Both the position numbers and the translations under genes were made by a program. From IMG/VR virus record IMGVR_UViG_3300023203_000736: DNA of 64,000 nucleotides; one strand, 5' to 3'. The notes under the pieces were generated by a model that worked only from the letters and a program-made list of their open reading frames with translations, made no database searches and was not told where the DNA came from. The stretch is from a virus (taxonomy: Duplodnaviria > Heunggongvirae > Uroviricota > Caudoviricetes). Each line of letters starts with the position of its first letter. Within the stretch, counting starts at the first letter, position 1. Positions 2,555 to 26,178 of the stretch are shown here, one piece after another.

Positions 2555-3631
2555 TCACTTTCTGAATTGGGGTCGGGCCATCTGAGCGTAGAGGTTCTCT
2601 TCCAGCGAACCGTCCGATTGCAGTGCGATCACCTTCTGCTCCAAATGGTGACACTTCTGATCGCTTTCCTCGCGGCTCAGGTCACGGAACACCCAGCCGC
2701 TCGTGATCGCATCCCAACATTCGACCATGCGGTTAAGCACGGTCATCTGATGGGCATTGCTCACGCGGGCGCGTTGCTGGGCGACTCGCAACAGCGGTCG
2801 GCCTTCCGGCATGTATTTGCTGACGATTTCGTCGATGCAGCACACTACCTCTTCGTCGCCTATCTGCTCGCCAAGGAGCCAACCGTACATGCAGAGTTGG
2901 TCGGCGTACTCCTCGTTGCCGCTTTCCATGTACAACTGATTGATCTCGAATCCGTGGTGGTCATACGGCACGTAGTCCTTGTGTGCCGTGTTGTGACTCT
3001 TGCTCGCCTTGAACGGGGGGCCATAGCCGTCACGGCAAAGGCGGTAGTTCTTACTCGGAGAGGCTCCGTACTTCGAGCAGAAACCCTTGACCTTCCAATC
3101 GAGGATCACGTGAACCCCGCATTCGTGAATGAAGCGGCAGTCCGGCTTGCCGACGATCGGCACGCCTTTGATCTCGCTACGGACCTCGAATTCAAACCGA
3201 GGCGGCTCCTTCGATTTCTGGAGCATGGCCAACAGTTCGTCGAACGCGCCGGTCAGCACGTAGCAATCGAAGACGTATTTGCCCGCGTCCAGCGCGAAGT
3301 CGCGGTTGTGCGGCTCGACTTGATTCTCGAAGATCGCGGTGAAGTTAAACTGTGGATCAGCCCCTTTGCCGAACAGCCGTTCGTGCAAGGCAGACTTCGC
3401 ATAGGCGTCGAAGCCGGCACCGACCGACATATAGATTTCCTGGGCGATGCGCGGAGCGCGGGTCTCGGCCAAGTGTTTTATGTAAAACTCTTCGCGGTCC
3501 TTACCCCAGAGCGTCAGCGAAGAGTGGCTAAGGTAGGTTGGCTTTCTCACGAGTCGAGCATCTCCTTGATCCTGTGCCGCAAGTAATCGGCAGCCAAGTG
3601 ACCGTTGAGGGCGTTCCACGGTCGAGGGCAT
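2555..3631 (-). CDS. Putative PD-(D/E)xK-family nuclease. The start is uncertain; an internal Met is at 3430.
   Basis: KPDCRFIHECGVHVILDWKVKG reads as PD ... DxK. The C-terminal part is Cys/His-rich. Its 5' end overlaps the next gene if the first Met is used. Confidence 0.4.
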   Translation of the reverse strand: MPSTVERPQRSLGCRLLAAQDQGDARLVRKPTYLSHSSLTLWGKDREEFYIKHLAETRAPRIAQEIYMSVGAGFDAYAKSALHERLFGKGADPQFNFTAIFENQVEPHNRDFALDAGKYVFDCYVLTGAFDELLAMLQKSKEPPRFEFEVRSEIKGVPIVGKPDCRFIHECGVHVILDWKVKGFCSKYGASPSKNYRLCRDGYGPPFKASKSHNTAHKDYVPYDHHGFEINQLYMESGNEEYADQLCMYGWLLGEQIGDEEVVCCIDEIVSKYMPEGRPLLRVAQQRARVSNAHQMTVLNRMVECWDAITSGWVFRDLSREESDQKCHHLEQKVIALQSDGSLEENLYAQMARPQFRK

Positions 3632-4065: not shown

Positions 4066-4370
4066 GCCGGTTGACCGTCCCTCCCGTTGATGCACGGCTT
4101 ATTGAGGTCACGCATCGGAACGCCGTGCTGCTCGAAGCAGGCGACTCCGAGGGTCACGACTTTTCGCAGACTCTCCAAGGTCTTCTCGTCGCCGTCCTCG
4201 CAGGTCGCCGTGCGGAACGCCTGGTCAAGGTAGTGCCTCATGTAGACCAGGAACTCGCCGACAGTGCGATTGTGCTCCTGGAAAGTGCCGTTCCATTGGC
4301 GTTGCCCCCAGCGGCGGGCCTGGTAGGCACGCTCGCTGGCGATTGCGTCGAAAATCATGTCGATGGTCAT
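4062..4370 (-). CDS. Small acidic protein, possibly a MazG-like all-alpha NTP pyrophosphohydrolase.
   Basis: ERAYQARRWG and TVGEFLVYM resemble the EExxE / EVGEL helices of MazG-type NTP-PPases. This is a weak call. ATGA overlaps on both sides. Confidence 0.3.
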   Translation of the reverse strand: MTIDMIFDAIASERAYQARRWGQRQWNGTFQEHNRTVGEFLVYMRHYLDQAFRTATCEDGDEKTLESLRKVVTLGVACFEQHGVPMRDLNKPCINGRDGQPA

Positions 4371-5440
4371 TCGTTGTCCTGTGCGCCTTTCCGATCGAGA
4401 TAGTCCGCGCTCACGCTTTTCAAGATCAGCCGGCCGCCGGTCGGAGCGTAGAAGTGCTCTACCTGCGGAGTGATGACGCAGCCTTCTCGATCCTTAAAGC
4501 TGCTCTTGATCTTGTCTGGAGTAGCCAACGTCGTGGGACCGTAGGTGAACTGATTCACGAGGTCTTTGCTGAACGGTCCCTCATAAAGCACGGGAACCAA
4601 TTCGACGCCGAACTGGGCGCAGGCGGCTTTCAGAGCCTCCCAGTCGAGATACCTGCCGTTGACGCTGATGTCGAAAACACGATAGCCATCCCTGTCCTTG
4701 ACTCCGTAGTCCAAGTCCTGGACGCCCGACCCGTAGATTTCCCCGAAAACGATCACTGAGTTCTTCTCATCACAGAGATGCGTGAGGAGATTCAAGACGC
4801 ATTCGTCTTCGAGCGGCTTCCAGTAGATGCACGCCTTGCCTTCTTCCGGCTTCTTCCGTCTGGTCCGATGGCTCCCGGCCATGAACTCGAATTCGCCGTT
4901 CTTGAGGATCAGGCCGACCCGGCTATTCGTGCCGTGAATCTTTTCCGTGATCCGAACGAGCGTTCCTTCCGCGAAGGCGTCAGGAAACCGCCAGATGTTC
5001 TCGATCTCCGTATACTTGTGAAACTGGCTATCCTCTGGCGCGAGATCGCCGGGAAAATACTTGGCCGGCGGTTCGTACTTCTTGGCGGCCCACATCACCG
5101 ACACGTCGCTTCCCAGGGGATGGGCGCGCAAGAGGTCGGGAGCAGGGATGACGAAACCGAAGCTCGGTTCGCCTCGCAGCCGGCAGGCCGCCACCCGACA
5201 CTGGCACTTGATGCCGTCGAGTTCGGCGTGTTTGAGGTACTTCTGGATGCCGAGCGTCTGGCTGACATCCTGTGGGATCAGAATTCCGGGAGGGAAGAAG
5301 ACTACCCGCTGACCTTGTTGGAACTCGCCCTTGCCGACGATCGTCGTGAGGCCCTTGATGACCGCGATTTCCAACTTGCTCGCGTTCGGATGGGGCCTCA
5401 CTTCATCAATGGTGGTGAGTTCAACGAAGAGGTTGGACAT
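4367..5440 (-). CDS. ATP-dependent RNA ligase, Rnl5-like (DraRnl/NgrRnl type), with an N-terminal OB-like domain.
   Basis: Nucleotidyltransferase motif I is TEKIHGTN (KxHGxN). The N-terminal region runs MSNLFVELTTIDEV...KLEIAVIKG. No C-terminal Rnl2 domain is present. Start is taken at MSNLF (5440). Confidence 0.6.
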   Translation of the reverse strand: MSNLFVELTTIDEVRPHPNASKLEIAVIKGLTTIVGKGEFQQGQRVVFFPPGILIPQDVSQTLGIQKYLKHAELDGIKCQCRVAACRLRGEPSFGFVIPAPDLLRAHPLGSDVSVMWAAKKYEPPAKYFPGDLAPEDSQFHKYTEIENIWRFPDAFAEGTLVRITEKIHGTNSRVGLILKNGEFEFMAGSHRTRRKKPEEGKACIYWKPLEDECVLNLLTHLCDEKNSVIVFGEIYGSGVQDLDYGVKDRDGYRVFDISVNGRYLDWEALKAACAQFGVELVPVLYEGPFSKDLVNQFTYGPTTLATPDKIKSSFKDREGCVITPQVEHFYAPTGGRLILKSVSADYLDRKGAQDNE

Positions 5441-5711
5441 AGGCGCGTACCTTGAGCGCTGGAGGATGGTTGGAGGAAAAGCTAGCGCAACGCCAGGCGC
5501 GGTTGGCGAGTCCTCTTCGACAGAGACCGCTTGCGCCAGCAAATTGGACTGACTGTGGCGGGATCGCCGAGTAGTCTAAGTCAACCTGGGAGTCTCCCAA
5601 GTATCAGGGCGCACACTGCCTTTTCGAGCAACGTCTTTTCCGGCAGCTAGGGACTGCTCTCCAGCGTTGCCGCTGGCATATTGCTCAGCCCATCAACTCC
5701 CAGGTCGGAAG

Positions 5712-6990: not shown

Positions 6991-7706
6991 CGGTCTTCCA
7001 TTGGTCGCTCGTGGTCAATCTTCTCCGCAAGCACTTTCTCGACTCGTTGGACGGCCTCAGCAAAATACTTGGCGTCCTTCTCGATTCCCACGAACCGCTT
7101 CCCGCTTCGGATCGCAGCCTCGGCCGTGGCACCCGATCCCATGAACCAGTCGCCGATTGCTTCGCCCGGCATCAAGGTAGCGAGCCGTTGCAGGAGTTCG
7201 ATTGGCTTCTCGGCTGGGTGAATGCGGTCGCTTGTTGGCACCACGCGGCACGCCAGGACGGTCCCTTGCGTGTCCGTGAGCGTTGCGCCGGTGCCGGAGC
7301 ACGCCAGGATCAACTCGTGCTGATGCCGCCACGGGCGGCCCATTCCGATCCGCTCCTTGTTCCAGACCAGACAGACCGATCGCGGGAACAGGCTGTAGGT
7401 AGCTTCGTAGAACACCGGGTAGCTCTGGGCATCACAGAAGAACAGGTGGTGAGCATCCTTGCCCGCGACCTTCTGTGACAGGCCCACGATTTGCTCAAAC
7501 CAGCCCCGCAGGATGCTCAGGTCTGCGTAGCAACGAGTCCAATCGCACTGCTCGGCCCGGCTCGCATAATGCTGAGCCGGAAGGAAGAACGGCGGGTCGG
7601 TGATGACCGCATCGACCATGCCGGCAGGCAAACGTTTTAGGACGTGTTCGGCATCACCGCAGAACAGCGAAATATCGTCCTGCTGCCAATCAGGCTTCAA
7701 GGTCAT
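6975..7706 (-). CDS. DNA methyltransferase, beta-class N6A/N4C (motif IV before motif I).
   Basis: DAVITDPPFF (DPPF) is N-terminal and FMGSGATAEAA (FxGxG) is C-terminal. Start is taken at MTLKPDW, which overlaps the DNA ligase stop as ATGA. Confidence 0.7.
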   Translation of the reverse strand: MTLKPDWQQDDISLFCGDAEHVLKRLPAGMVDAVITDPPFFLPAQHYASRAEQCDWTRCYADLSILRGWFEQIVGLSQKVAGKDAHHLFFCDAQSYPVFYEATYSLFPRSVCLVWNKERIGMGRPWRHQHELILACSGTGATLTDTQGTVLACRVVPTSDRIHPAEKPIELLQRLATLMPGEAIGDWFMGSGATAEAAIRSGKRFVGIEKDAKYFAEAVQRVEKVLAEKIDHERPMEDRCRVL

Positions 7707-8794
7707 TCCACGTCCCTCCGTCGCCAATAGCGGGCTTCCTTTGGGATTCCGTCATCGGTGAGTTCCCGGTACTTGAACGTGACCGTCTGGCCTGTCTTGA
7801 AGCACCGCCCCTGGAAGAACTTGGGCATATCCTCGCCCGGATGCTCGGCCGCCGTGCGGCTCATGTCGGGGTTGAGAAACTCGCGCTCGGCGTCCGTCAG
7901 GCCGGCAAGCTCCAGTCGCTTGCCTTGGTAGTCCACGATTAGGGCACCGATCTTGCCCAAGAGTCGGCTACCCTTGTCTGTCTCACGGCCGCTGGTGAAG
8001 CCGACGATCGCGGCTTCCGCATCCTCGAAGGGCTTGAACTTGAGTAAGCCCTTATGCCGCTTCGGCGTCCAAGTCGCCATCGGATCACGGATCACGCAAC
8101 CCTCGCCTCCCTGGTCGAGCACCTTTCGCAGGAACTCGTTGACCATCTCACGAGCGGCCTCCTCATCCTCGGGGAGCCGAATCTGCTGGTGGATGAACAC
8201 GCAATCGTTCTGGGCTTCCAGGAACTCGCGCAGGAACATCAACTCATCGTTAAAGGTCGCGGGCGTCTTCACCCAGCCATAGCCCGGCATCTTGTCGATG
8301 CGAGACTTGAGCCATTGGTCGATCTTCTCGAACTCCAGATTGCACACCATGTTCGGATTCTTGATCTCTCCCGACATGAACACGTATGGTAAAGCTGGCG
8401 CACTGTAGACCGCATAACTGATCCGATGGAAACGAGGGTCGGGATCATCACCGGCGCAGATCGACCGGCAGAGTTGAAACCCGCCCCGACCGGCCCAGAG
8501 TTCGCCGTCTAGCGGACACGCTGGCAGAGCGTTGAGAAAATCATCCGGGGCCATGATCGGATTCCCATACCGCGACCACAGACCCGTGGCAGATGGTTTG
8601 AGCTTGGACTTTCTCTTGCCGGTTTTCGGGTCTGTCACGCTGGCCCACGGTATTTGTTCGGTAGGGACGCCACGGCTTACACCGCCGTCCCAGAAGCAGC
8701 GAGTTCCGTCGAGCTTCTCGCTGACCAGGTAGCCGGCGATCTTGTGTTTGTCTGGGTTGTAGGTGTCGGCCAATTGCAGAAACTCACGACGCAC
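7703..8794 (-). CDS. ATP-dependent DNA ligase.
   Basis: Motif I is SEKLDGTR (KxDGxR). The ligase/OB architecture is about 360 aa. Confidence 0.8.
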   Translation of the reverse strand: MRREFLQLADTYNPDKHKIAGYLVSEKLDGTRCFWDGGVSRGVPTEQIPWASVTDPKTGKRKSKLKPSATGLWSRYGNPIMAPDDFLNALPACPLDGELWAGRGGFQLCRSICAGDDPDPRFHRISYAVYSAPALPYVFMSGEIKNPNMVCNLEFEKIDQWLKSRIDKMPGYGWVKTPATFNDELMFLREFLEAQNDCVFIHQQIRLPEDEEAAREMVNEFLRKVLDQGGEGCVIRDPMATWTPKRHKGLLKFKPFEDAEAAIVGFTSGRETDKGSRLLGKIGALIVDYQGKRLELAGLTDAEREFLNPDMSRTAAEHPGEDMPKFFQGRCFKTGQTVTFKYRELTDDGIPKEARYWRRRDVE

Positions 8795-9068
8795 TGTTGC
8801 TCTCCAGGTACTTGAACGCGGACTCGCTAAAATCAGCGAGGAAACTGCCTGCGCAACCGCAGGCGAACACGATGAACGGATTGAGGCTAATCAGTGGGCC
8901 AAGCAGAACGCCGCACCAGAACCCCGAGCACTGATAGCACTCGAACAGGCCGTGGTACAACTTGGCGGGGAGATGTGCCTTCGCCCATTCGTCCACCGGC
9001 TCCATAATCTCGCTGTCCACAACGATGTGCGTCATGCCAATGACGGCAATGCAGAACAGCAAGATCAT
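8784..9068 (-). CDS. Small Cys-rich hydrophobic protein.
   Basis: YHGLFECYQCSGFWCGVLLGPLI... ATGA overlap with the upstream phosphoesterase stop. Confidence 0.35.
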   Translation of the reverse strand: MILLFCIAVIGMTHIVVDSEIMEPVDEWAKAHLPAKLYHGLFECYQCSGFWCGVLLGPLISLNPFIVFACGCAGSFLADFSESAFKYLESNSAS

Positions 9069-9856
9069 ATTGGCAACTCCGTTTGATTGGGGACCGGCTG
9101 CCGGTCCACCCAGTCGAACACGCCGACCGTGCCGCTATCGTCGATGCACACGTAACCATTGGTGTGCTCAGCCCAGGTGCCGCAGTTGTAGTTCCAAGTG
9201 CAGAGGCGGCCGGGCTGGTGCGTATGGCCCGTTATAAACACGTCGCAATCCGCCTTGAGGTAAAGGTCGTGCAGGTTGCGGTTGATTTCGACGAACCGAT
9301 CCGGCTTGCCTCGCAGCCAGTTCCATTTGCTCACAAGCCACTCCATGCGGCTCAATGAGCGAGCTTCCACCGTGCGGTACTTGTCGAGCATGGGGCCGCC
9401 GTTGCGGTCCTCTCGCAATCCGGTGTAGATTGCGGTGATCCGGCCGAGACCTGGCGTGTCGCCTACGCAGTATGGGTCCGCCTCGTGGCCGTGGAGGAAG
9501 CGGAACAATCTGCCGCCCTTATTGAGGCAGCAGCCGAGACACATCCGCTCGAAGAAGGGATGCGCCAGCCATCCGCCCTGTCCGACGAAGTAACGCAGAT
9601 CGGCGTCATGGTTCCCCAGAATGTAGGTGGCCTGCATCTTCGCCAGCCGATCAAGGAGCGACATCCGTTTCGTGAGTACCTTGCTCATGTTGCTCTGCCA
9701 CAACTCGAACAGGTCGCCGCAGATCACCAGCCGGCCGGCGTTGTCCTCGACCATATCGAGGAACGAGGCCAATTGCTTTTCACGATCGCCATACGCGAAA
9801 TTGTCGCGCGGCCCGCCGTCGCCCATGTGAAGATCACTGATTGCATAAACCGGCAT
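9065..9856 (-). CDS. Calcineurin-like metallophosphoesterase.
   Basis: The motif series is SDLHMGDG, GDLFE, GNHD, GHTHQ. Confidence 0.7.
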   Translation of the reverse strand: MPVYAISDLHMGDGGPRDNFAYGDREKQLASFLDMVEDNAGRLVICGDLFELWQSNMSKVLTKRMSLLDRLAKMQATYILGNHDADLRYFVGQGGWLAHPFFERMCLGCCLNKGGRLFRFLHGHEADPYCVGDTPGLGRITAIYTGLREDRNGGPMLDKYRTVEARSLSRMEWLVSKWNWLRGKPDRFVEINRNLHDLYLKADCDVFITGHTHQPGRLCTWNYNCGTWAEHTNGYVCIDDSGTVGVFDWVDRQPVPNQTELPI

Positions 9857-9877
9857 AAAGCCTCCTTTGTCTCAAAA

Positions 9878-9949
9878 AGCCAGCGGCAGGGGTCGAACCT
9901 GCAACCTGCTGATTACAAGTCAGCCGCTCTTCCGTTGAGCTACACTGGC
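9878..9949 (-). tRNA. tRNA-Thr (anticodon TGT).
   Basis: Hand-folded as GCCAGTG-TA-GCTC-AACGGAA-GAGC-G-GCTGA-CTTGTAA-TCAGC-AGGTT-GCAGG-TTCGACC-CCTGC-CGCTGGC-T. The acceptor stem has 7 bp with one G-U pair. The D, anticodon and T arms are canonical. Confidence 0.8.
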
Positions 9950-10132
9950 TCCCAGTCCGATCACGACTGCGCGTCGGCGCTGGTCGTCTCGGCTTGGACC
10001 TCCTCGCACGGGGCGGTGTCGCACGGAGCCGCATCGGCGGCTTCGGTGCGTGGAGCCTCGGGAAGAGTCTGCTCTTCCGACTGAGGGCGGGTCTGGGTTT
10101 CGTCGTGCGTCATTGCGAGCACTCCTGTGGGG

Positions 10133-16300: not shown

Positions 16301-17935
16301 CTAGTTGCGAATGAAGTCCGCCATCAAGGCAGGGCAGGATGCGTCGAATCCGACGACATCCAACATGCCGGCGTCGTTCGGGTCGGCGATCGTAAACCCG
16401 GTGGCCGTCATGCCAACGACAATCAGCTTGGCATTGATGCCCGTGGCCTGACGGTACTGCATGAGGGCCTGGCTGGGATGGATGTGCCCAGCCCAGGTCT
16501 CATTGTCCGTGTAGACCACGAAAGCATCGACTTCGAGCCGATTCTTGAGGGCATAGATCATCGGGAGAGCGCAGTCGGTGCCGCCCATCGGAATCTGCTC
16601 GATCGCCTGGATCACGCCGTTGAGACCCTTCCGTTTCGAGATGTCCACGGGCACCAGTTCGTGCGAGAAGCCGACCACGTGAGTCTGCGGCTCGACCTTC
16701 TGAGTCACCATCGACATGCAGGCTGAAGCCTTTCGGGCGTCCAGGTGCGTGCCGGCTAGGTGCTCCCAACCCATCGACCCGGACACGTCCAGGGCCAGCA
16801 AGTGCCGCTTGCCGGTCGGCTCGACGGTATCGAAGGCCGCGTAGAAGGCGTCCTCCAAGGCGTCGGTGATCTGGGGCACCGGCTGCCACGTCAGGCTGCC
16901 TTTGACGCCGTGGCCGCTACCATAGGTGTCGGCCGCGATCAGGATAGACAGCGGATGCACGCGAGCGCCTTTGAGCCGCTCCTTGTTCGTGAGCGTGTCG
17001 CACACCAGCTTCGTCGCCAACGACAGCGGTTTGAGCAGGCCAACGCTGGTCATCTTGCCGAGGTTCCGAATCATGGCCGTGGGCGGCAGATTCGGTAGCA
17101 AGGCGTCCCAAACCTTCGGGTTGCCCAGCAGCGTGTTGGGCACGTGTTCCAGGGTCACGCCATAATTCTGAATCAACTGGATGGCTGCCTTCTCGTCGGC
17201 AGTACCGAGCTTGTTGATCTCGTTAAAGCCAGCAATGAGGGCCAGCGCCTGACCGCCGTAGGCCACAGCGAACCCGGCGCTCCGACCGTTGGTGTATGCC
17301 TCTGGCAGGGTTCCGTGCGTGAGCCAACGATAGATCGCGTTCCGTTGCGAATCAGTTGTCTTCGGATGGCTCAGCCGCAGCACATCGCGGTGCGTGTAGC
17401 CGGCGCGGTTACGGTACTTCGTAACCTGATAGGCCAGCTTATCCGCAGGCTTGGCGTTGTACCAAGCCGCAACCGCCTCACGCAGGCCACGGCCCCAGCC
17501 GCGCAGTTCCTTGCAGTTGGCGACGAACTGGAACAGGTGGGTCGCCGTGCGGCAGACGCGAGGCATCGCGGCCAAGGCTCGATGCCGGAGGTAGCCCTGG
17601 TCCTGCTGGCTCGCCAGCAAAGCCAGGGCGAAGATTGCAGGATCGTTCTTTGGAGCACGTCCCAACTCGCTGATCGCGGCGATCGTCTCGACGGCGCGAA
17701 TGGCGTCGGTCTTCCCGCATTCAATCACCACGTTGGCATTGTCGGCCGTCAACTGCTGCTCGCCCACATAGTAGGTGCCGCCCTCGCTGCCAAGGATCAG
17801 GAACCGCTCCAGACGGCTCCAGCAATCGAGAGTGTGGCTGTAGCCGCCGGCGCTGTTCTCCGCCTGGCGCTTGCCGGGAATCGGCCGGCTCTGCGGAGTA
17901 ACTCGGGACGACACATGCTTGGCAAGGGTCTGCAT
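16301..17935 (-). CDS. rsr: Ro60 ortholog Rsr (TROVE domain plus C-terminal vWA/MIDAS).
   Basis: [22 protein letters not shown] and PAIFALALL are colinear with human Ro60 [22 protein letters not shown] and PMLFALAIC. C-terminal [11 protein letters not shown] is a DxSxS MIDAS motif. Confidence 0.9.
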   Translation of the reverse strand: [544 protein letters not shown]

Positions 17936-17959
17936 CGAACGATCTCCAGGGTAGAAGGA

Positions 17960-18019
17960 TTGGGCAAACAGTTGCCGTGGGCGTCATCATTGCCAGATAA
18001 CCCACGCGCTTCGGCCCAA
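17960..18019 (-). ncRNA. Y-RNA-like stem-loop 4 (Ro-binding-type helix with bulged C), 25 nt upstream of the rsr ATG.
   Basis: Minus strand reads UUGGGC-C-GAAG...CGUGGG-loop(UUAUCUGGCAAUGAUGACG)-CCCACG...GUUU-GCCCAA. The lower helix TTGGGC/GCCCAA has a bulged C followed by GAA/UUU. Confidence 0.45.
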
Positions 18020-18026
18020 TGTTTTG

Positions 18027-18093
18027 CCGGGCAAAGAGCGCCGATCGGTGTTTGTCAACTAAAGGTGAGATAACCGATTCAGCTTCGGCCCGG
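18027..18093 (-). ncRNA. Y-RNA-like stem-loop 3.
   Basis: CCGGGC-C-GAAG-CUGA-AUCGG-loop(UUAUCUCACCUUUAGUUGACAAACA)-CCGAU-CGGCGCU-CUUU-GCCCGG. The helix has 11 bp with a single bulged C. GGGCCGAAG..GUUAUCUCA matches vertebrate Y RNA GGUCCGAAGG..GUUAUCUCA. Confidence 0.5.
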
Positions 18094-18095
18094 AG

Positions 18096-18226
18096 GCACG
18101 CCGGTAGGACTTGAACCTACGACCACAGGTTCCCATTGTGATAACGCTCCCAATTCGGCCCATCAGGCAAGGGACTTGGAAGCGGTTTTCTGATACCTGT
18201 GCTCTGACCAACTGAGCTACGGCGTA
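18096..18226 (-). ncRNA. tRNA-like / Y-RNA chimera A (YrlA-like).
   Basis: Acceptor TACGCCG/CGGCGTG, D-arm GCTC-AGTTGGTCA-GAGC and T-arm GTAGG-TTCAAGT-CCTAC are present. The anticodon position is occupied by a ~65-nt insert that contains UGGGCCGAAUUGGGAGCGUUAUC. Confidence 0.55.
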
Positions 18227-18235
18227 CATATAAGC

Positions 18236-18357
18236 GGACACCGGCGGGAGTCGAACCCGCAACACCCCGTTATCAGCGGATAACGCTTTGCCTTCGGCCC
18301 AAGGGGCAAGGGATGGAAAGCGCGTCTTAGGTGCTTTGCCGATTAAGCTACGGCGTC
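18236..18357 (-). ncRNA. tRNA-like / Y-RNA chimera B (YrlA-like).
   Basis: Acceptor GACGCCG/CGGTGTC, D-arm GCTT-AATCGGCA-AAGC and T-arm GCGGG-TTCGACT-CCCGC are present. The insert CUUUCCAUCCCUUGCCCCUUGGGCCGAAGGCAAAGCGUUAUC has 17 of 23 nt identical to the hY1 motif UGGUCCGAAGGUAGUGAGUUAUC. Confidence 0.55.
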
Positions 18358-18370
18358 CACAATCGTCCCT

Positions 18371-18408
18371 CCTTTGGATGACGTAGCTCAATTCGCTTTC
18401 CGTTCAAC
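18371..18408 (-). promoter_or_regulatory. Conserved 38-nt element R1. It starts at the ParB-like stop codon and lies immediately 5' of Y-RNA chimera B.
   Basis: Minus strand: TGAACGGAAAGCGAATTGAGCTACGTCATCCAAAGGAGG. It is nearly identical to R2 at 24421-24458. Confidence 0.4.
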
Positions 18409-19204
18409 TTTTGTCCCGTTTTGCCGATTCGATGTCGTGATCGAGTTCTTCGTCGTTGATATATCCCGCACACCACGCTCCAAACCGCGTAACCAGTCCG
18501 CCCAGACCGGCTTCGAGCAATTGCCCGATGCGGGCATTGATCTCTTCCTTGCCGCGCCGATAGCGAAATGTCCTCCGATACCTGGGATTGACGTTGATCT
18601 TACGCTTGTTCTTGCCGCGAGCCGCGATGATCTCGTTCGCGGCTTGAATCTGCTCATCAGGCGGCAGCTTCACCAAGGCGTCAACGTCGAGCAGCGTCAG
18701 CATACGAGCGGCGACCTTCTCGCGGAGTTCCTCGGGAAGCTCCATGATCCGAAGCCGCTGATGTACCCAACGTGTATCCCGATTCATTTCCTGGGCAATC
18801 GCCCGAAGACTTGCACCCTTCGGAAACCGCCTGGCGATTGCCTGTGCCTGTTCAAGAGGATTGAGGTCTTCGCGTTCCAGGTTCTCCGTGAGGTTCAGAA
18901 TCTCGGCCGCCCGATCGGTGAGGCCCCGCCGGATGTTCGCCGGAATGCCGGTCCATCTCAGAAACGTCTTGACCGCCGCCAGACGACGGAAACCCGCAAC
19001 CAAGCGATACGGCTCCACAAAGCCGGCTTGGCTGTCCTCGCGCTGTTGAAGAATCACCGGAATTTCAAGTCCCGCCTGCGCGATATTGTCCGCTAGCCCC
19101 TTGACGGACTGAAATGTAAACGCAGTGCGGCAGTTGAAGTCGGGATCAACCCAGATGTCGGTGAGCGGAACGTCGTACACGTCATAGCGACTAAGGCGTT
19201 CCAT
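18404..19204 (-). CDS. ParB-like nuclease-domain protein.
   Basis: LVAGFRRLAAV is the GxRR ParB-box. Start is taken at MERLSRYDVY (19204), because the longer ORF runs over tRNA-Asn. Confidence 0.65.
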   Translation of the reverse strand: MERLSRYDVYDVPLTDIWVDPDFNCRTAFTFQSVKGLADNIAQAGLEIPVILQQREDSQAGFVEPYRLVAGFRRLAAVKTFLRWTGIPANIRRGLTDRAAEILNLTENLEREDLNPLEQAQAIARRFPKGASLRAIAQEMNRDTRWVHQRLRIMELPEELREKVAARMLTLLDVDALVKLPPDEQIQAANEIIAARGKNKRKINVNPRYRRTFRYRRGKEEINARIGQLLEAGLGGLVTRFGAWCAGYINDEELDHDIESAKRDKS

Positions 19205-19252
19205 AGATGCCTCGGTAGACGAAAAACGGCCCGACCGAAGCCGGGCCAAAAG

Positions 19253-19325
19253 CTGCATCGCCTGGAGTCGAACCAGGAACCACAGCATTAACAGTGCCGC
19301 GCTCTACCATTTGAGCTACGATGCA
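19253..19325 (-). tRNA. tRNA-Asn (anticodon GTT).
   Basis: TGCATCG-TA-GCTC-AAATGGTA-GAGC-G-CGGCA-CTGTTAA-TGCTG-TGGTT-CCTGG-TTCGACT-CCAGG-CGATGCA-G. All arms are canonical. Confidence 0.85.
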
Positions 19326-25242: not shown

Positions 25243-26121
25243 CTAACTCGAATCTATGGGCGCATCCAGAACCTCTCTTTCTCTGCGGGCACGCACCCCA
25301 GCTTCCTGTTGCCGCACGCTGGCTTTGTCGAGATGGCAGGCCCACCGCAGGCCGGCGTAGAAGCCATCGAGCACGTTCAGGCAATCCTCGGCCGCGCAGA
25401 TCAGTGCTCCGACTTCCTTCTTTTCAATCTCGTGTACGATCTCTTTGACGTGATGAAGATGGGCCTCGGGTCGGAACTCGTCCGAATAGAAGGCGTCCAT
25501 CTTGCCCTGCTTGACCGCCTCCCGGAACTGCTTGACGCACGCCGCCGCCAACGGCTTGAATTCCCTGGCGGGCATGACCTTGGCCCGATCCACGTAGTCC
25601 TTTTGCATGGACCGTGGAATCGTGGCCAACTTGTAAGCGTTCTCAATGGGAATCTCGCCCCGATCGACCATCACCTGAATCTCTTTCAGCAGGTTGGTCA
25701 GATCGAGGCACTTCCCGACCCAGCGAGGCTGCTTGCGGATGAGACAAGCCAACTCGCCTTGGGTCATGCCGGGATTGCGCACCAGCAGCCTCTTGAGTTG
25801 CTGGGCATACTCGGCCTGCTTCGTTTCCGGCGAGATCGCGTTCGCCTGAAGCATCAGGACAAGAGCTTCGTCATCGCTACACTCCCTGATGATGCAGGGC
25901 AGCGCGTCCCGGCCGACTTCGCGGGCGGCTGTGTAGCGCTGGAGGCCGTTGATGATCTCGTAGCCGCCTTCGACAGGCCGCACGAGAAGCGATTGCAGGA
26001 TGCCCTTTTCCCGGATGCTGTCTCGCAGTTCCAGGTACTCGACGCTATCCCGATTCACGCCTCGCAGTTTGATCTTGGGTTCTCGCAGGACGTGGATCGG
26101 GAGGAACTCGATCTGGTCCAT
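25243..26121 (-). CDS. ParB/Srx-like domain protein.
   Basis: EIINGLQRYTAAREVG is a ParB-box. Start is taken at MDQIEFLPIHVL (26121). The upstream extension is an artefact of the inverted repeat. Confidence 0.6.
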   Translation of the reverse strand: MDQIEFLPIHVLREPKIKLRGVNRDSVEYLELRDSIREKGILQSLLVRPVEGGYEIINGLQRYTAAREVGRDALPCIIRECSDDEALVLMLQANAISPETKQAEYAQQLKRLLVRNPGMTQGELACLIRKQPRWVGKCLDLTNLLKEIQVMVDRGEIPIENAYKLATIPRSMQKDYVDRAKVMPAREFKPLAAACVKQFREAVKQGKMDAFYSDEFRPEAHLHHVKEIVHEIEKKEVGALICAAEDCLNVLDGFYAGLRWACHLDKASVRQQEAGVRARREREVLDAPIDSS

Positions 26122-26142
26122 GCGACGACTCCCTTTTCCACA

Positions 26143-26178
26143 AATACAGTAGCCTAGATCGCCACGATTCCTCAATGA
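26143..26178 (-). promoter_or_regulatory. Promoter-like motif P1 (TTGAGG-N18-TACTGT), 22 nt upstream of the 26121 start.
   Basis: Minus strand: TCATTGAGGAATCGTGGCGATCTAGGCTACTGTATT. It forms an inverted-repeat partner with P2 and is repeated at 61363-61398. Confidence 0.4.

What the first reader, a model, noticed from the sequence alone, without database searches (positions are those of the whole stretch)
18096..18357. Two tandem tRNA-like molecules whose anticodon arm is replaced by a Y-RNA Ro-binding module
Both elements have a 7-bp acceptor stem formed by their ends. In A it is TACGCCG/CGGCGTG and in B it is GACGCCG/CGGTGTC. Both have a canonical D-arm (GCTC-AGTTGGTCA-GAGC and GCTT-AATCGGCA-AAGC) and T-arm (GTAGG-TTCAAGT-CCTAC and GCGGG-TTCGACT-CCCGC). 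Where the anticodon arm should be there is a ~60-65-nt insert containing UGGGCCGAAGGCAAAGCGUUAUC in B and UGGGCCGAAUUGGGAGCGUUAUC in A. This is the architecture reported for bacterial YrlA RNAs, a tRNA mimic fused to an Rsr-binding module. Here the two copies are separated by only 9 nt and share the 5' sequence ACGCCGUAGCU. RNase P or RNase Z could excise them from a polycistronic precursor.
Basis: seen in the sequence. Interest (0 to 1): 0.8.

Follow-up and report, generated by a model that had tools for sequence, protein, structure and literature searches.

The report
Phage tRNA-shaped Y RNAs beside Ro60
Just upstream of a phage gene for the RNA-binding ring protein Ro60 lie two back-to-back RNAs that are complete tRNA look-alikes carrying a Ro60-docking hairpin on their anticodon arm. 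They are an apparently undescribed, unscrambled version of the known bacterial "YrlA" tRNA mimics.

Summary
The elements lie on the minus strand: B = 18357..18236 and A = 18226..18096. Both have a 7-bp acceptor stem, D arm and T arm, and both carry a capped hairpin with the Y-RNA motif GGGCCGAA...GUUAUC.

They sit 161-422 nt upstream of a full-length Ro60/Rsr gene (17935..16301) in a tailed-phage genome. Two simple Y-RNA hairpins, C and D, follow them.

Published YrlA is a circularly permuted tRNA: T arm before D arm, closed acceptor loop, RNA ends in the Ro stem. A and B have the normal tRNA order, open acceptor ends and a loop-capped Ro helix.

In A the module replaces the anticodon loop. 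In B it is inserted between nt 28 and 29 of the anticodon stem, and an anticodon-like loop (CUGAUAA) is kept.

Covariance models found about 116 distinct full-length relatives in other rsr loci. Covariation is strong: 93-95% of cells paired against 66-73% when shuffled. Permuted relatives in other phage contigs contain the same modules.

The most likely reading is Rsr-bound tRNA mimics cut from a B-A-C-D-rsr precursor by tRNA-processing enzymes. This is a new variant of a known kind. No expression or binding data exist.

The parts
18236..18357 (-). Chimera B (type B), 122 nt: a tRNA body with a Y module inserted in the 5' strand of the anticodon stem. Layout: acceptor 5' strand 18357..18351, D arm 18348..18333, nt 27-28 at 18331..18330, T arm 18260..18244, acceptor 3' strand plus discriminator 18243..18236.
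   Evidence: Sequence read. Model R1, built without B, scores it 71.4 bits; model R2 scores it 97.5 bits. ARAGORN calls tRNA-Ile(GAU), 72 nt, once the insert is removed in silico.
18280..18329 (-). B's 50-nt Y module. Stem 2 is CGCUUUCC/GGCAAAGCG. Stem 1 is GCCC/GGGC capped by CUU (18307..18297). The motif GCCGAAG lies at 18298..18292, followed by GUUAU.
   Evidence: Compensatory changes appear in the L002 orthologue, CGCUUACCC/GGGUCAGCG. Family covariation for helices 4 and 5 is.
18265..18279 (-). B's retained anticodon-like hairpin, CCG-CUGAUAA-CGG, plus G42 G43, which pair with C27 C28.
   Evidence: Parse. Helix 3 (27-28/42-43) is 96-97% paired across the family with 5-6 pair types.
18227..18235 (-). 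9-nt spacer GCUUAUAUG between B's discriminator and A's first nucleotide.
18096..18226 (-). Chimera A (type A), 131 nt. Layout: acceptor 5' strand 18226..18220, D arm 18217..18201, anticodon stem CAGGU (18199..18195) / ACCUG (18130..18126), T arm 18120..18104, acceptor 3' strand plus discriminator 18103..18096. The anticodon loop is replaced by the Y module.
   Evidence: Rfam tRNA 47.5 bits. R2, built without A, scores it 74.3 bits. The anticodon stem covaries in relatives: CAAGU/ACUUG, CCAGU/ACUGG, GCUGU/ACAGC, CGAGU/ACUCG, AUUGU/ACAAU.
18131..18194 (-). A's Y module with its internal loops. Stem 2 is CGCUUCCAA (18184..18176) / UUGGGAGCG (18153..18145). Stem 1 is GCCU/GGGC capped by GAU (18168..18158). 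It carries GGGCCGAAUUG and GUUAUC.
   Evidence: Compensatory changes in L001 (UCGA/UCGG) are.
18027..18093 (-). Simple Y-RNA hairpin C. Its termini pair as CCGGGC/GCCCGG, and it carries GGGCCGAAG...GGUUAUC. It starts 3 nt after A's discriminator.
   Evidence: Fold z = -2.9. A compensatory AUCGGU/ACCGAU to AUUGGU/ACCAAU change is seen in L002.
17960..18019 (-). Simple Y-RNA hairpin D. Its termini pair as UUGGGC/GCCCAA, and it carries GGGCCGAAG and a GUUAUC/GAUGAC upper stem.
   Evidence: The Rfam sbRNA model RF01656 (nematode Y-RNA homologue) scores it 19.9 bits here. Eight Y-RNA hairpins reach that model's gathering score across the 20 rsr loci scanned, most of them just upstream of rsr.
16301..17935 (-). 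rsr, a 544-aa Ro60 orthologue. A GGAG Shine-Dalgarno sequence lies at 17947.
   Evidence: Pfam TROVE 1e-46 and vWA_Ro60 2.5e-68. Matches solved structures RO60 9nen (1.3e-130), Xenopus Ro60 1yvp (4e-125) and D. radiodurans Rsr 2nvo (2e-120).

Best explanation
A and B are phage-encoded Y RNAs of the YrlA superfamily in a non-permuted, tRNA-topology form.

Structure. Each is a complete tRNA body. It has a 7-bp acceptor stem made by its own ends, a D arm and a T arm, and the U8-A14, 15-48 Levitt and G18G19/T-loop elbow nucleotides. A closed, loop-capped bulged helix projects from the anticodon arm. That helix carries the Ro60-recognition strand GGGCCGAA(G)...GUUAUC.

Two subtypes. In A the module replaces the anticodon loop. 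In B it branches from the 5' strand of the anticodon stem between nt 28 and 29, and a 7-nt anticodon-like loop survives.

Inferred mechanism.
- B, A, the simple Y RNAs C and D, and rsr are transcribed as one minus-strand precursor.
- RNase P cuts at the 5' ends of B and A.
- 3' end processing at A's discriminator simultaneously frees the 5' end of C.
- CCA is added after transcription, because none is encoded.
- Phage Rsr binds the capped helix.
- The tRNA-shaped body then serves as the effector or tethering domain, as proposed for YrlA. This would couple Rsr to tRNA-recognising factors or to RNA decay and repair during infection.

What is shown: the sequence, the covarying secondary structure, linkage to rsr, and homology of modules with permuted YrlA-type RNAs.

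What is inferred: expression, the processing sites, Rsr binding and the cellular role.
For: 1. Gene context. Rsr lies immediately downstream on the same strand. The window is a tailed phage with terminase, portal, tape measure and a replication module.

2. Conservation in close relatives. The same B-A-C-D-rsr layout occurs in L001 and L002 with compensatory changes. A's acceptor changes from UACGCCG/CGGCGUG to CACGUUG/CAACGUG. B's stem 2 changes from CGCUUUCC/GGCAAAGCG to CGCUUACCC/GGGUCAGCG.

3. A large family. Models R1 and R2 find 116 distinct full-length (108-155 nt) hits in rsr-selected and pattern-selected loci.

4. Covariation.
- A8: 94.9% of cells paired against 73.2% shuffled; covariation score 0.523 against 0.159; 0/500 shuffles reach it; slid registers give 37-46%.
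- A7: 93.2% against 65.9%; 0.583 against 0.165.

5. tRNA tertiary nucleotides in 61 fully parsed members. U8 is present in 60/61 and A14 in 61/61. The Levitt pair is G15-C48 in 33 and A15-U48 in 22. A itself has G15-C48 and B has A15-U48.

6. Register.
- Each unit's own acceptor stem pairs 6.97/7. Cross-unit pairing across 18 tandem junctions is 5.44/7.
- Many loci have a single unit, which cannot form the permuted register.
- The MFE of the whole B-A dimer is two separate units. P(own acceptor) is 0.77 against 0.21 for the junction hairpin.

7. Link to rsr independent of how loci were chosen. A DNA pattern for the module plus T arm, which matches both topologies, finds 90 viral stretches. Of the 80 fetched, 50 encode Rsr within the few kb held. 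Only about 16 of the 80 carry the full non-permuted chimera, so this supports the module-rsr link, not the topology.

8. Homology with YrlA. Twenty-eight permuted elements have the same modules in rotated order.

9. Experimental precedent. M. smegmatis YrlA, which has a 7-bp acceptor-like stem, is cut by RNase P, gains CCA in vivo, and is processed with YrlB from one precursor upstream of rsr (PMC4201824).
Against: - There are no expression, end-mapping or Rsr-binding data for any member.
- No sigma-70-like promoter or terminator was found flanking the cluster, so the transcription unit is inferred.
- A's motif is GCCGAAUUG. That is two nucleotides, not 0-1, before the G, so it does not strictly fit the published GNCGAAN0-1G. 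Across the family only CGGGCCG and GUUAUC are well conserved.
- In the unprocessed dimer the alternative junction hairpin is only 1.3 kcal/mol worse.
- The covariation alignments were fitted to the model structure, which biases pair counts towards it.
- Conservation of a canonical anticodon-loop frame in type B (U33 38/40, purine-37 39/40) is not explained by a pure Rsr-tether role.
Confidence: 0.75

Rival explanations
1. The functional RNA is one canonical, circularly permuted YrlA spanning the junction. It would comprise B's Ro strand and T arm, a closed 'acceptor' hairpin made of B's 3' strand plus A's 5' strand with the spacer as loop, then A's D arm and Ro strand. The outer halves would be leftovers.
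For: The Rfam YrlA model aligns exactly this way at 18289..18176, 42.7 bits, E = 1.3e-7 within 2 kb. The junction hairpin can form 6/7 pairs and has probability 0.21 in the dimer ensemble. Truly permuted relatives exist in other phage contigs.
Against: - The score is below the gathering threshold of 69.
- Chen et al. warn that tandem tRNAs give exactly this kind of false hit (PMC4201824).
- Both Y modules are closed in cis by 3-nt caps, and stem 2 covaries in cis. B's Ro strand pairs with A's opposite strand over only 5 bp, against 8-9 bp in cis (sequence).
- The 1-72 pair is U-G in A and G-C in B. Cross-wise it would be U-C and G-G.
- L002 keeps perfect own-unit acceptor stems through double compensatory changes.
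- Single non-tandem units are common.
Confidence: 0.06
2. B-type elements, and perhaps A, are precursors of ordinary decoding tRNAs. The Y module would be a new kind of intron that is excised, for example with ligation by an RNA ligase, with Rsr acting on the precursor or on the excised intron.
For: - Removing the insert between nt 28 and 29 in silico makes ARAGORN of 49 type-B elements as 71-76-nt tRNAs. B becomes tRNA-Ile(GAU).
- 7-nt loops with U33 (38/40) and purine-37 (39/40) are conserved, and 23 different triplets occur.
- The elements sit in tRNA arrays.
- The phage encodes an RNA ligase at 5542..4367.
- Rsr/Y RNA genes are linked to RtcB in bacteria (bioRxiv 10.1101/312249).
Against: - No group I intron family matched, and 50 nt is too short for one. 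No bacterial protein-dependent tRNA splicing endonuclease has been reported (bioRxiv 10.1101/312249).
- The conserved fold is a three-way junction, not a bulge-helix-bulge.
- 'Ser' (GCU, UGA) and 'Leu' (UAA) triplets occur on 71-74-nt bodies without the long variable arm that bacterial Ser and Leu tRNAs need (established tRNA knowledge).
- The syntenic orthologues B (GAU) and L002-B (GUU) differ in the triplet.
- 9 of 49 loops are not 7 nt long.
- Type A has no conserved loop frame.
- Identical modules exist in permuted YrlA-type RNAs, where excision cannot yield a tRNA. YrlAs are stable Rsr-bound RNAs (PMC4201824).
Confidence: 0.08
3. They are functional, unspliced, aminoacylated decoder tRNAs that merely carry an extra arm.
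For: The tRNA body is complete and the acceptor end is free. B has an anticodon-like loop. M. smegmatis YrlA receives CCA (PMC4201824).
Against: A has no anticodon loop. The same triplet and identity inconsistencies apply as for the intron rival. A 50-nt helix branching from the anticodon stem is hard to reconcile with ribosomal A/P-site geometry; this last point is an inference.
Confidence: 0.04
4. They are decayed tRNA pseudogenes disrupted by an unrelated insertion, or a chance resemblance.
For: ARAGORN in its default mode does not call them.
Against: More than 100 relatives show compensatory substitutions in every helix, including those of the insert. The insert size is tightly distributed, 46-74 nt with a mode of 50. 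Linkage to rsr is strong.
Confidence: 0.01

Closest known systems
YrlA (Y RNA-like A; Rfam RF02553; S. Typhimurium, M. smegmatis, mycobacteriophages; Chen et al. 2014, Wang et al. 2018)
   Same: - Encoded next to rsr on the same strand.
- Ro-recognition strand of the GNCGAA type.
- tRNA-like D arm, T arm and acceptor-like stem, with the tertiary-interaction nucleotides including a covarying 15-48 pair.
- Often accompanied by a second, simpler Y RNA (YrlB) and processed from one precursor.
- Permuted phage relatives share every module with A and B.
   Different: - YrlA is circularly permuted. The T arm precedes the D arm, the acceptor-like stem is closed by a loop, there is no free CCA end unless RNase P cuts it, and the RNA termini form the Ro-binding stem.
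- A and B have the tRNA gene order, termini at a 7-bp acceptor stem, and a Ro helix closed by a 3-nt cap.
- B also keeps a 7-nt anticodon-like loop.
- The Rfam model does not reach its gathering score on A or B. It also found nothing in the 40 other rsr loci scanned, including loci that carry permuted elements.
Deinococcus radiodurans Yrn1
   Same: An Rsr-bound Y RNA with a T arm and partial D-loop features in the order D, 'anticodon arm', T (PMC4201824).
   Different: In Yrn1 the Ro-binding stem, formed by the termini, occupies the acceptor position, and the 'anticodon arm' is a plain hairpin with a 6-nt loop. Here the acceptor stem is a genuine 7-bp tRNA acceptor and the Ro module sits on the anticodon arm.
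Metazoan Y RNAs and nematode sbRNAs (Rfam RF00019, RF01656)
   Same: A bulged lower helix with GG(U/G)CCGA on the 5' strand, followed by GUUAUC. The neighbouring hairpins C and D have this simple architecture. Similar Y-RNA hairpins in other rsr loci, most of them just upstream of rsr, reach the sbRNA gathering score.
   Different: There is no tRNA body in metazoan Y RNAs. In A and B the helix end that carries the termini in Y RNAs is capped.
Circularly permuted tRNA genes (Cyanidioschyzon merolae) and two-piece permuted tmRNAs
   Same: They are precedents for a tRNA-shaped RNA family existing in both permuted and non-permuted gene orders. Wang et al. 2018 cite permuted tRNAs. The tmRNA case is from my own knowledge.
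   Different: Those RNAs mature into translation-active molecules. No such role is shown here.
Intron-containing tRNA genes (bacterial group I introns; archaeal bulge-helix-bulge introns)
   Same: There is an insertion in the anticodon arm whose removal restores a cloverleaf.
   Different: The insert is a conserved, covarying Ro-binding hairpin of about 50 nt located between nt 28 and 29 of the stem. It has no ribozyme core and does not form a BHB in the conserved fold.

Membership tests
YrlA (Chen et al. 2014; Rfam RF02553) | Encoded within about 4 kb of a Ro60/Rsr gene, on the same strand | tested here: met
   A and B lie 161-422 nt upstream of rsr (17935..16301) on the minus strand.
YrlA (Chen et al. 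2014; Rfam RF02553) | GNCGAAN0-1G motif on the Ro-binding strand | tested here: inconclusive
   B has GCCGAAG, an exact fit. A has GCCGAAUUG, with two nucleotides before the G. Many relatives have GGGCCG followed by a triplet other than GAA.
YrlA (Chen et al. 2014; Rfam RF02553) | tRNA-like D and T arms with conserved tertiary-interaction nucleotides and a covarying 15-48 pair | tested here: met
   U8 60/61, A14 61/61, G15-C48 33 and A15-U48 22 of 61, T loop UUCRANU. A has G15-C48 and B has A15-U48.
YrlA (Chen et al. 2014; Rfam RF02553) | Permuted order: T arm 5' of D arm, closed acceptor-like stem-loop between them, RNA termini in the Ro-binding stem | tested here: not met
   The order is D arm, module, T arm. 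Stem 1 is capped by CUU in B and GAU in A. The 7-bp acceptor stem is formed by the unit's own ends, with covariation.
YrlA (Chen et al. 2014; Rfam RF02553) | Score at or above the Rfam gathering threshold (69 bits) | tested here: not met
   42.7 bits, and only across the B/A junction. The model is narrow: it gave no hit in 40 other rsr loci either.
YrlA (Chen et al. 2014; Rfam RF02553) | Bound by Rsr in vivo; carries psi55 and D modifications | not testable with these tools
   This needs immunoprecipitation, EMSA and modification mapping.
tRNA (Rfam RF00005) | Cloverleaf at or above the gathering score | tested here: met
   A scores 47.5 bits against a gathering score of 29, with a 61-nt insertion. 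B is not reported by Rfam, but ARAGORN calls it tRNA-Ile(GAU) after in-silico removal of the 50-nt insert.
tRNA (Rfam RF00005) | Anticodon loop whose triplet is consistent with the identity features of the body, i.e. a decoding function | tested here: not met
   A has no anticodon loop. Across type B the triplet varies between syntenic orthologues (GAU against GUU). Ser and Leu triplets occur without a long variable arm. Aminoacylation itself is not testable here.
Intron-containing tRNA (group I or BHB) | Group I ribozyme core, or a bulge-helix-bulge at the exon-intron junctions | tested here: not met
   No Intron_gpI hit in the Rfam scans. The insert is 50-64 nt. The conserved fold places both junction strands at one three-way junction rather than as two bulges separated by 4 bp.
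Simple Y RNA / sbRNA (RF01656), for neighbours C and D only | Terminal bulged helix with GGNCCGA 5' strand plus GUUAUC; score at or above 38 bits | tested here: inconclusive
   D scores 19.9 bits. Eight Y-RNA hairpins across the 20 rsr loci scanned, most of them just upstream of rsr, score 38.5-41.3 bits.

The most novel reading that the evidence does not exclude
The Y module may be a Ro60-docking cassette installed in otherwise competent tRNAs. Type-B chimeras would be matured to a free CCA end and either aminoacylated or precisely spliced, with ligation by a phage or host RNA ligase, to release both a working tRNA and a Y RNA. Rsr would then sit directly beside the anticodon loop. There it could act as a guard, sensor or repair platform against host anticodon nucleases during infection. 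This reading would also make the tandem B-A arrangement the living intermediate from which permuted YrlA arose.
Probability: 0.1. Interest if true: 0.9.

Novelty: new variant of a known kind. Interest (0 to 1): 0.62.

Why it matters
YrlA-type Y RNAs are the best-known bacterial tRNA mimics, but two things about them remain unknown: what their tRNA domain does, and how they arose.

Origin. [quoted passage not shown] The window shows exactly such a dimer, already carrying Ro modules. The Rfam YrlA model aligns across its junction. Permuted relatives are module-for-module rotations of type B, down to a relic anticodon loop that corresponds to YrlA's 'V' arm. Together these give the hypothesis concrete intermediates that can be tested phylogenetically.

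Function. The non-permuted form presents a free acceptor end and often an intact anticodon-loop frame next to the Ro60 site. [quoted passage not shown] It points experiments towards CCA addition, aminoacylation and anticodon-loop-directed enzymes.

Annotation. These elements are unannotated, are missed by the Rfam YrlA model, and are mis-called as intron-bearing tRNAs. They are common in Rsr-encoding phage contigs and in tRNA-array loci of Myxococcota and Verrucomicrobiota MAGs.

Tried and rejected
- BLAST of the locus against 50,697 deposited phage genomes, in both near and distant modes, found nothing. No annotated relative was available.
- The Rfam YrlA gathering score is not a useful membership test. 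It found nothing in 40 rsr loci, including loci that carry permuted elements.
- I first read the T-to-D spacing of about 30-34 nt in Verrucomicrobiota loci as canonical YrlA. That was wrong. These are D-module-T chimeras followed by the next tRNA.
- The MAFFT alignment of A-type with B-type copies mis-registered the D arm. I therefore built separate seed alignments.
- I tried to test whether discriminator bases match the 'anticodon'. ARAGORN end coordinates were inconsistent, so the test was abandoned.
- I tested whether identical acceptor stems carry different triplets. Only 4 groups were available, 3 of them discordant, so the test is underpowered.
- The sigma-70 promoter and terminator scan found nothing flanking the cluster. 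The plus-strand 'terminator' at 18268..18285 is only the reverse complement of B's GUUAUC/GAUAAC segment.
- The supplements of Chen et al. 2014 and the two Sim/Wolin reviews are not held. I could not check whether a non-permuted example is mentioned there.
Full report
**1. The observation**

The two elements are on the minus strand.
- B spans 18357..18236 (122 nt).
- A spans 18226..18096 (131 nt).
- A 9-nt spacer separates them.

The Rfam tRNA model matches A end to end at 47.5 bits, E = 4.9e-7 for the whole window, with a 61-nt insertion in the anticodon loop. ARAGORN in default mode calls only tRNA-Thr (9950..9877) and tRNA-Asn (19325..19253).

**2. Context**

The ORF immediately downstream on the same strand (17935..16301, 544 aa) is a full-length Ro60/Rsr.
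- Pfam TROVE and vWA_Ro60 domains match.
- E-values to solved RO60, Xenopus Ro60 and D. radiodurans Rsr structures are 1e-130 to 2e-120.

Two more elements lie between A and rsr: C (18093..18027) and D (18019..17960). They have the classical simple Y-RNA shape. Their termini pair as GGGC../..GCCC, and the 5' strand carries GGGCCGAAG and then GUUAUC. D weakly matches the Rfam model of nematode sbRNAs, which are Y-RNA homologues. Eight similar hairpins across the 20 rsr loci scanned, most of them just upstream of rsr, reach that model's gathering score.

The window is a tailed phage. It encodes terminase, portal, tape measure, primase, helicase, exonuclease and family-A DNA polymerase. No related record exists among deposited phage genomes.

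**3. The topology question**

The Rfam YrlA model does hit the region, but below threshold (42.7 against 69 bits). It also hits in a different register: from B's module through B's T arm, the B/A junction and A's D arm. That is the published YrlA architecture:
- T arm before D arm
- a closed acceptor-like stem-loop between them
- RNA ends in the Ro-binding stem
- in effect a circularly permuted tRNA without a free CCA end (PMC4201824; bioRxiv 10.1101/312249).

Chen et al. explicitly note that tandem tRNAs give false YrlA hits of this kind.

**4.

Capped modules. In both units the helix that carries the termini in Y RNAs is closed by a 3-nt loop: B has GCCC-CUU-GGGC and A has GCCU-GAU-GGGC. The adjacent stem pairs in cis: A has CGCUUCCAA/UUGGGAGCG and B has CGCUUUCC/GGCAAAGCG. 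B's Ro strand could pair with A's opposite strand over only 5 bp.

Acceptor pair 1-72. It is U-G in A and G-C in B. Cross-wise it would be U-C and G-G.

Orthologues. Two viral contigs whose Rsr is 82% and 71% identical (L001, L002) have the same B-A-C-D-rsr layout. L002 changes A's acceptor stem from UACGCCG/CGGCGUG to CACGUUG/CAACGUG. It changes B's stem 2 to CGCUUACCC/GGGUCAGCG.

Tandem junctions. Over 18 tandem junctions in other loci, own-unit acceptor stems average 6.97/7 pairs against 5.44/7 across junctions. Many loci carry a single unit, for which the permuted register is impossible.

Thermodynamics. Folding the whole 262-nt dimer gives two separate units (-95.1 kcal/mol). Forcing the junction hairpin costs 1.3 kcal/mol and leaves both modules folded in cis. 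Ensemble probabilities are 0.77 against 0.21.

**5. A family with two subtypes**

A covariance model built from the three A-type copies (R1) found B at 71.4 bits. It also found dozens of 115-150-nt hits in 160 rsr-containing loci from viral contigs and MAGs. Parsing these revealed two subtypes.

Type A (window A). A 5-bp anticodon stem encloses the module, so only the loop is replaced. The stem covaries: CAGGU/ACCUG, CAAGU/ACUUG, CCAGU/ACUGG, GCUGU/ACAGC, CGAGU/ACUCG, AUUGU/ACAAU.

Type B (window B, the majority).
- The module is inserted between nt 28 and 29 of the anticodon stem.
- Nt 27-28 pair with nt 42-43. Nt 29-31 and 39-41 form the inner stem, closed by a loop.
- The insert is 46-74 nt, most often 50 nt.
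- B reads C27C28 | module | C29C30G31-CUGAUAA-C39G40G41-G42G43.

A second model built from 20 type-B seeds (R2) found A at 74.3 bits. It yielded alignments of 41 viral and 65 MAG hits.

Pair counts on those alignments:

| Alignment | Cells paired | Shuffled | Covariation score | Shuffled | Shuffles reaching it | Slid registers |
|---|---|---|---|---|---|---|
| A8 (MAG) | 94.9% | 73.2% | 0.523 | 0.159 | 0/500 | 37-46% |
| A7 (viral) | 93.2% | 65.9% | 0.583 | 0.165 | 0/500 | 37-44% |

Both-sided changes occur in every helix, including the 2-bp helix 27-28/42-43, which is 96-97% paired with 5-6 pair types. Caveat: these alignments were fitted to the model structure.

**6. tRNA likeness**

Among 61 fully parsed members:
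- U8 is present in 60 and A14 in 61.
- The T loop is UUCRANU.
- The Levitt pair is G15-C48 in 33 and A15-U48 in 22. A has the former and B the latter.

Of 49 type-B members, 40 have a 7-nt loop. U33 is present in 38/40 and purine-37 in 39/40. Positions 34-36 are free, with 23 different triplets.

Deleting the insert in silico makes ARAGORN, 49 as 71-76-nt tRNAs.

The triplets do not behave like anticodons:
- The syntenic orthologues B and L002-B differ (GAU against GUU).
- 'Ser' (GCU, UGA) and 'Leu' (UAA) triplets sit on bodies without a long variable arm.
- 9/49 loops are not 7 nt.
- Type A has no conserved loop frame.

I therefore regard them as tRNA mimics that retain an anticodon-arm shape, not as decoders. 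Why the loop frame is conserved remains unexplained.

**7. Relationship to YrlA**

I scanned viral contigs with a DNA pattern for the module plus T arm, chosen without reference to rsr. This pattern matches both topologies. It hit 90 stretches, and 50 of the 80 fetched encode Rsr within the few kb held. About 16 of the 80 loci contain full non-permuted chimeras.

Twenty-eight other matches are truly permuted: no D arm upstream, D arm after the T arm. These have:
- a 7-bp closed acceptor-like stem, all 7 pairs formed in 23/28, with a 4-7-nt loop in most
- the 27-28/42-43 pairs in rotated connectivity (24/28)
- a 7-nt anticodon-like loop in what Chen et al. call the V arm (21/28; U33 17/21, purine-37 21/21).

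The two forms are therefore exact circular permutations of one design. The tandem B-A pair in the window is the kind of dimer from which a permuted YrlA could arise by a shift of the transcript ends. That fits the dimeric-tRNA origin model cited by Wang et al., and refines it.

The Rfam YrlA model found nothing at threshold in 40 rsr loci of either topology, so failing it says little.

I found no description of the non-permuted form in the searchable literature. Two reviews and the 2014 supplements are not held.

**8. Mechanism (inferred)**

No sigma-70 promoter or terminator separates the elements. B, A, C, D and rsr are packed with gaps of 2 to 24 nt, and a GGAG lies 8 nt before the rsr ATG.

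By analogy with M. smegmatis, one precursor is likely. There, YrlA and YrlB are processed from a single precursor upstream of rsr, and the 7-bp acceptor-like stem is cut by RNase P and receives CCA (PMC4201824).
- RNase P would define the 5' ends of B and A.
- Cleavage at A's discriminator would create C's 5' end 3 nt downstream.
- CCA is not encoded, so it must be added.
- Rsr would bind the capped GGGCCGAA helix.
- The tRNA body would act as the effector domain.

The same phage encodes an RNA ligase (5542..4367) and a metallophosphoesterase (9856..9065). That is compatible with, but does not demonstrate, a role in RNA repair or in countering tRNA-targeting defences.

**9. Verdict**

The finding is real and more interesting than a routine YrlA call, but its stated equivalence to YrlA is wrong in topology. 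It is a new variant (non-permuted, open acceptor, capped Ro helix, two insertion modes) of a known kind (tRNA-mimicking Y RNAs). The family it belongs to is large and apparently unannotated. All functional statements remain inference.

Noticed in passing
window 18027..18093 (-) and 17960..18019 (-): Two simple Y-RNA hairpins, C and D, lie between chimera A and the rsr start codon. C begins 3 nt after A's discriminator, so 3' processing of A would generate C's 5' end. D weakly matches the Rfam nematode sbRNA model (19.9 bits).
   Followed up: partly
window 4367..5542 (-), 9065..9856 (-), 7703..8794 (-): The same phage encodes an RNA ligase (PF09414), a calcineurin-type metallophosphoesterase next to tRNA-Thr, and an ATP-dependent DNA-ligase-like protein. 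Together these may form an RNA-repair toolkit alongside Rsr and the Y RNAs.
   Followed up: no
L162-L240 (e.g. L199 minus strand, L195, L209, L212, L225): Truly permuted YrlA-type elements in other phage contigs have a 7-bp closed acceptor-like stem. Their 'V' hairpin has a 7-nt loop with U33 and purine-37. This suggests that YrlA's V arm is a relic anticodon arm and that the two topologies are exact rotations of each other.
   Followed up: partly
L081-L160 (e.g. L118 4834..6606, L090 4846..5534, L140 5626..6068): In Myxococcota and Verrucomicrobiota MAG contigs, rsr sits inside large tRNA arrays. These arrays contain up to seven tandem or interspersed tRNA-Y chimeras, mostly downstream of rsr.
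   Followed up: partly
all fetched loci (L001-L240): ARAGORN with intron search enabled calls the chimeras as intron-containing tRNAs with arbitrary anticodons. The Rfam tRNA model passes many of them at 30-56 bits. Automated annotation will therefore mislabel them.
   Followed up: yes
L002 about 2700..2980: The L002 orthologous locus carries about 210 extra nucleotides between C and D, including two further GGGCCG...GGGUUAUC Y-like modules.
   Followed up: no
window 18404..19288 (-) and 25243..26175 (-): There are two ParB-like ORFs. The annotated start of the first overlaps tRNA-Asn (19325..19253) and a terminator-like hairpin (19248..19227), so its true start is probably further downstream.
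   Followed up: no
window 18268..18285 (+): The plus-strand 'terminator-like' hit is only the reverse complement of B's CGUUAUC-CGCU-GAUAACG segment. That segment can fold as a perfect 7-bp hairpin competing with the CCG/CGG anticodon-like stem.
   Followed up: partly
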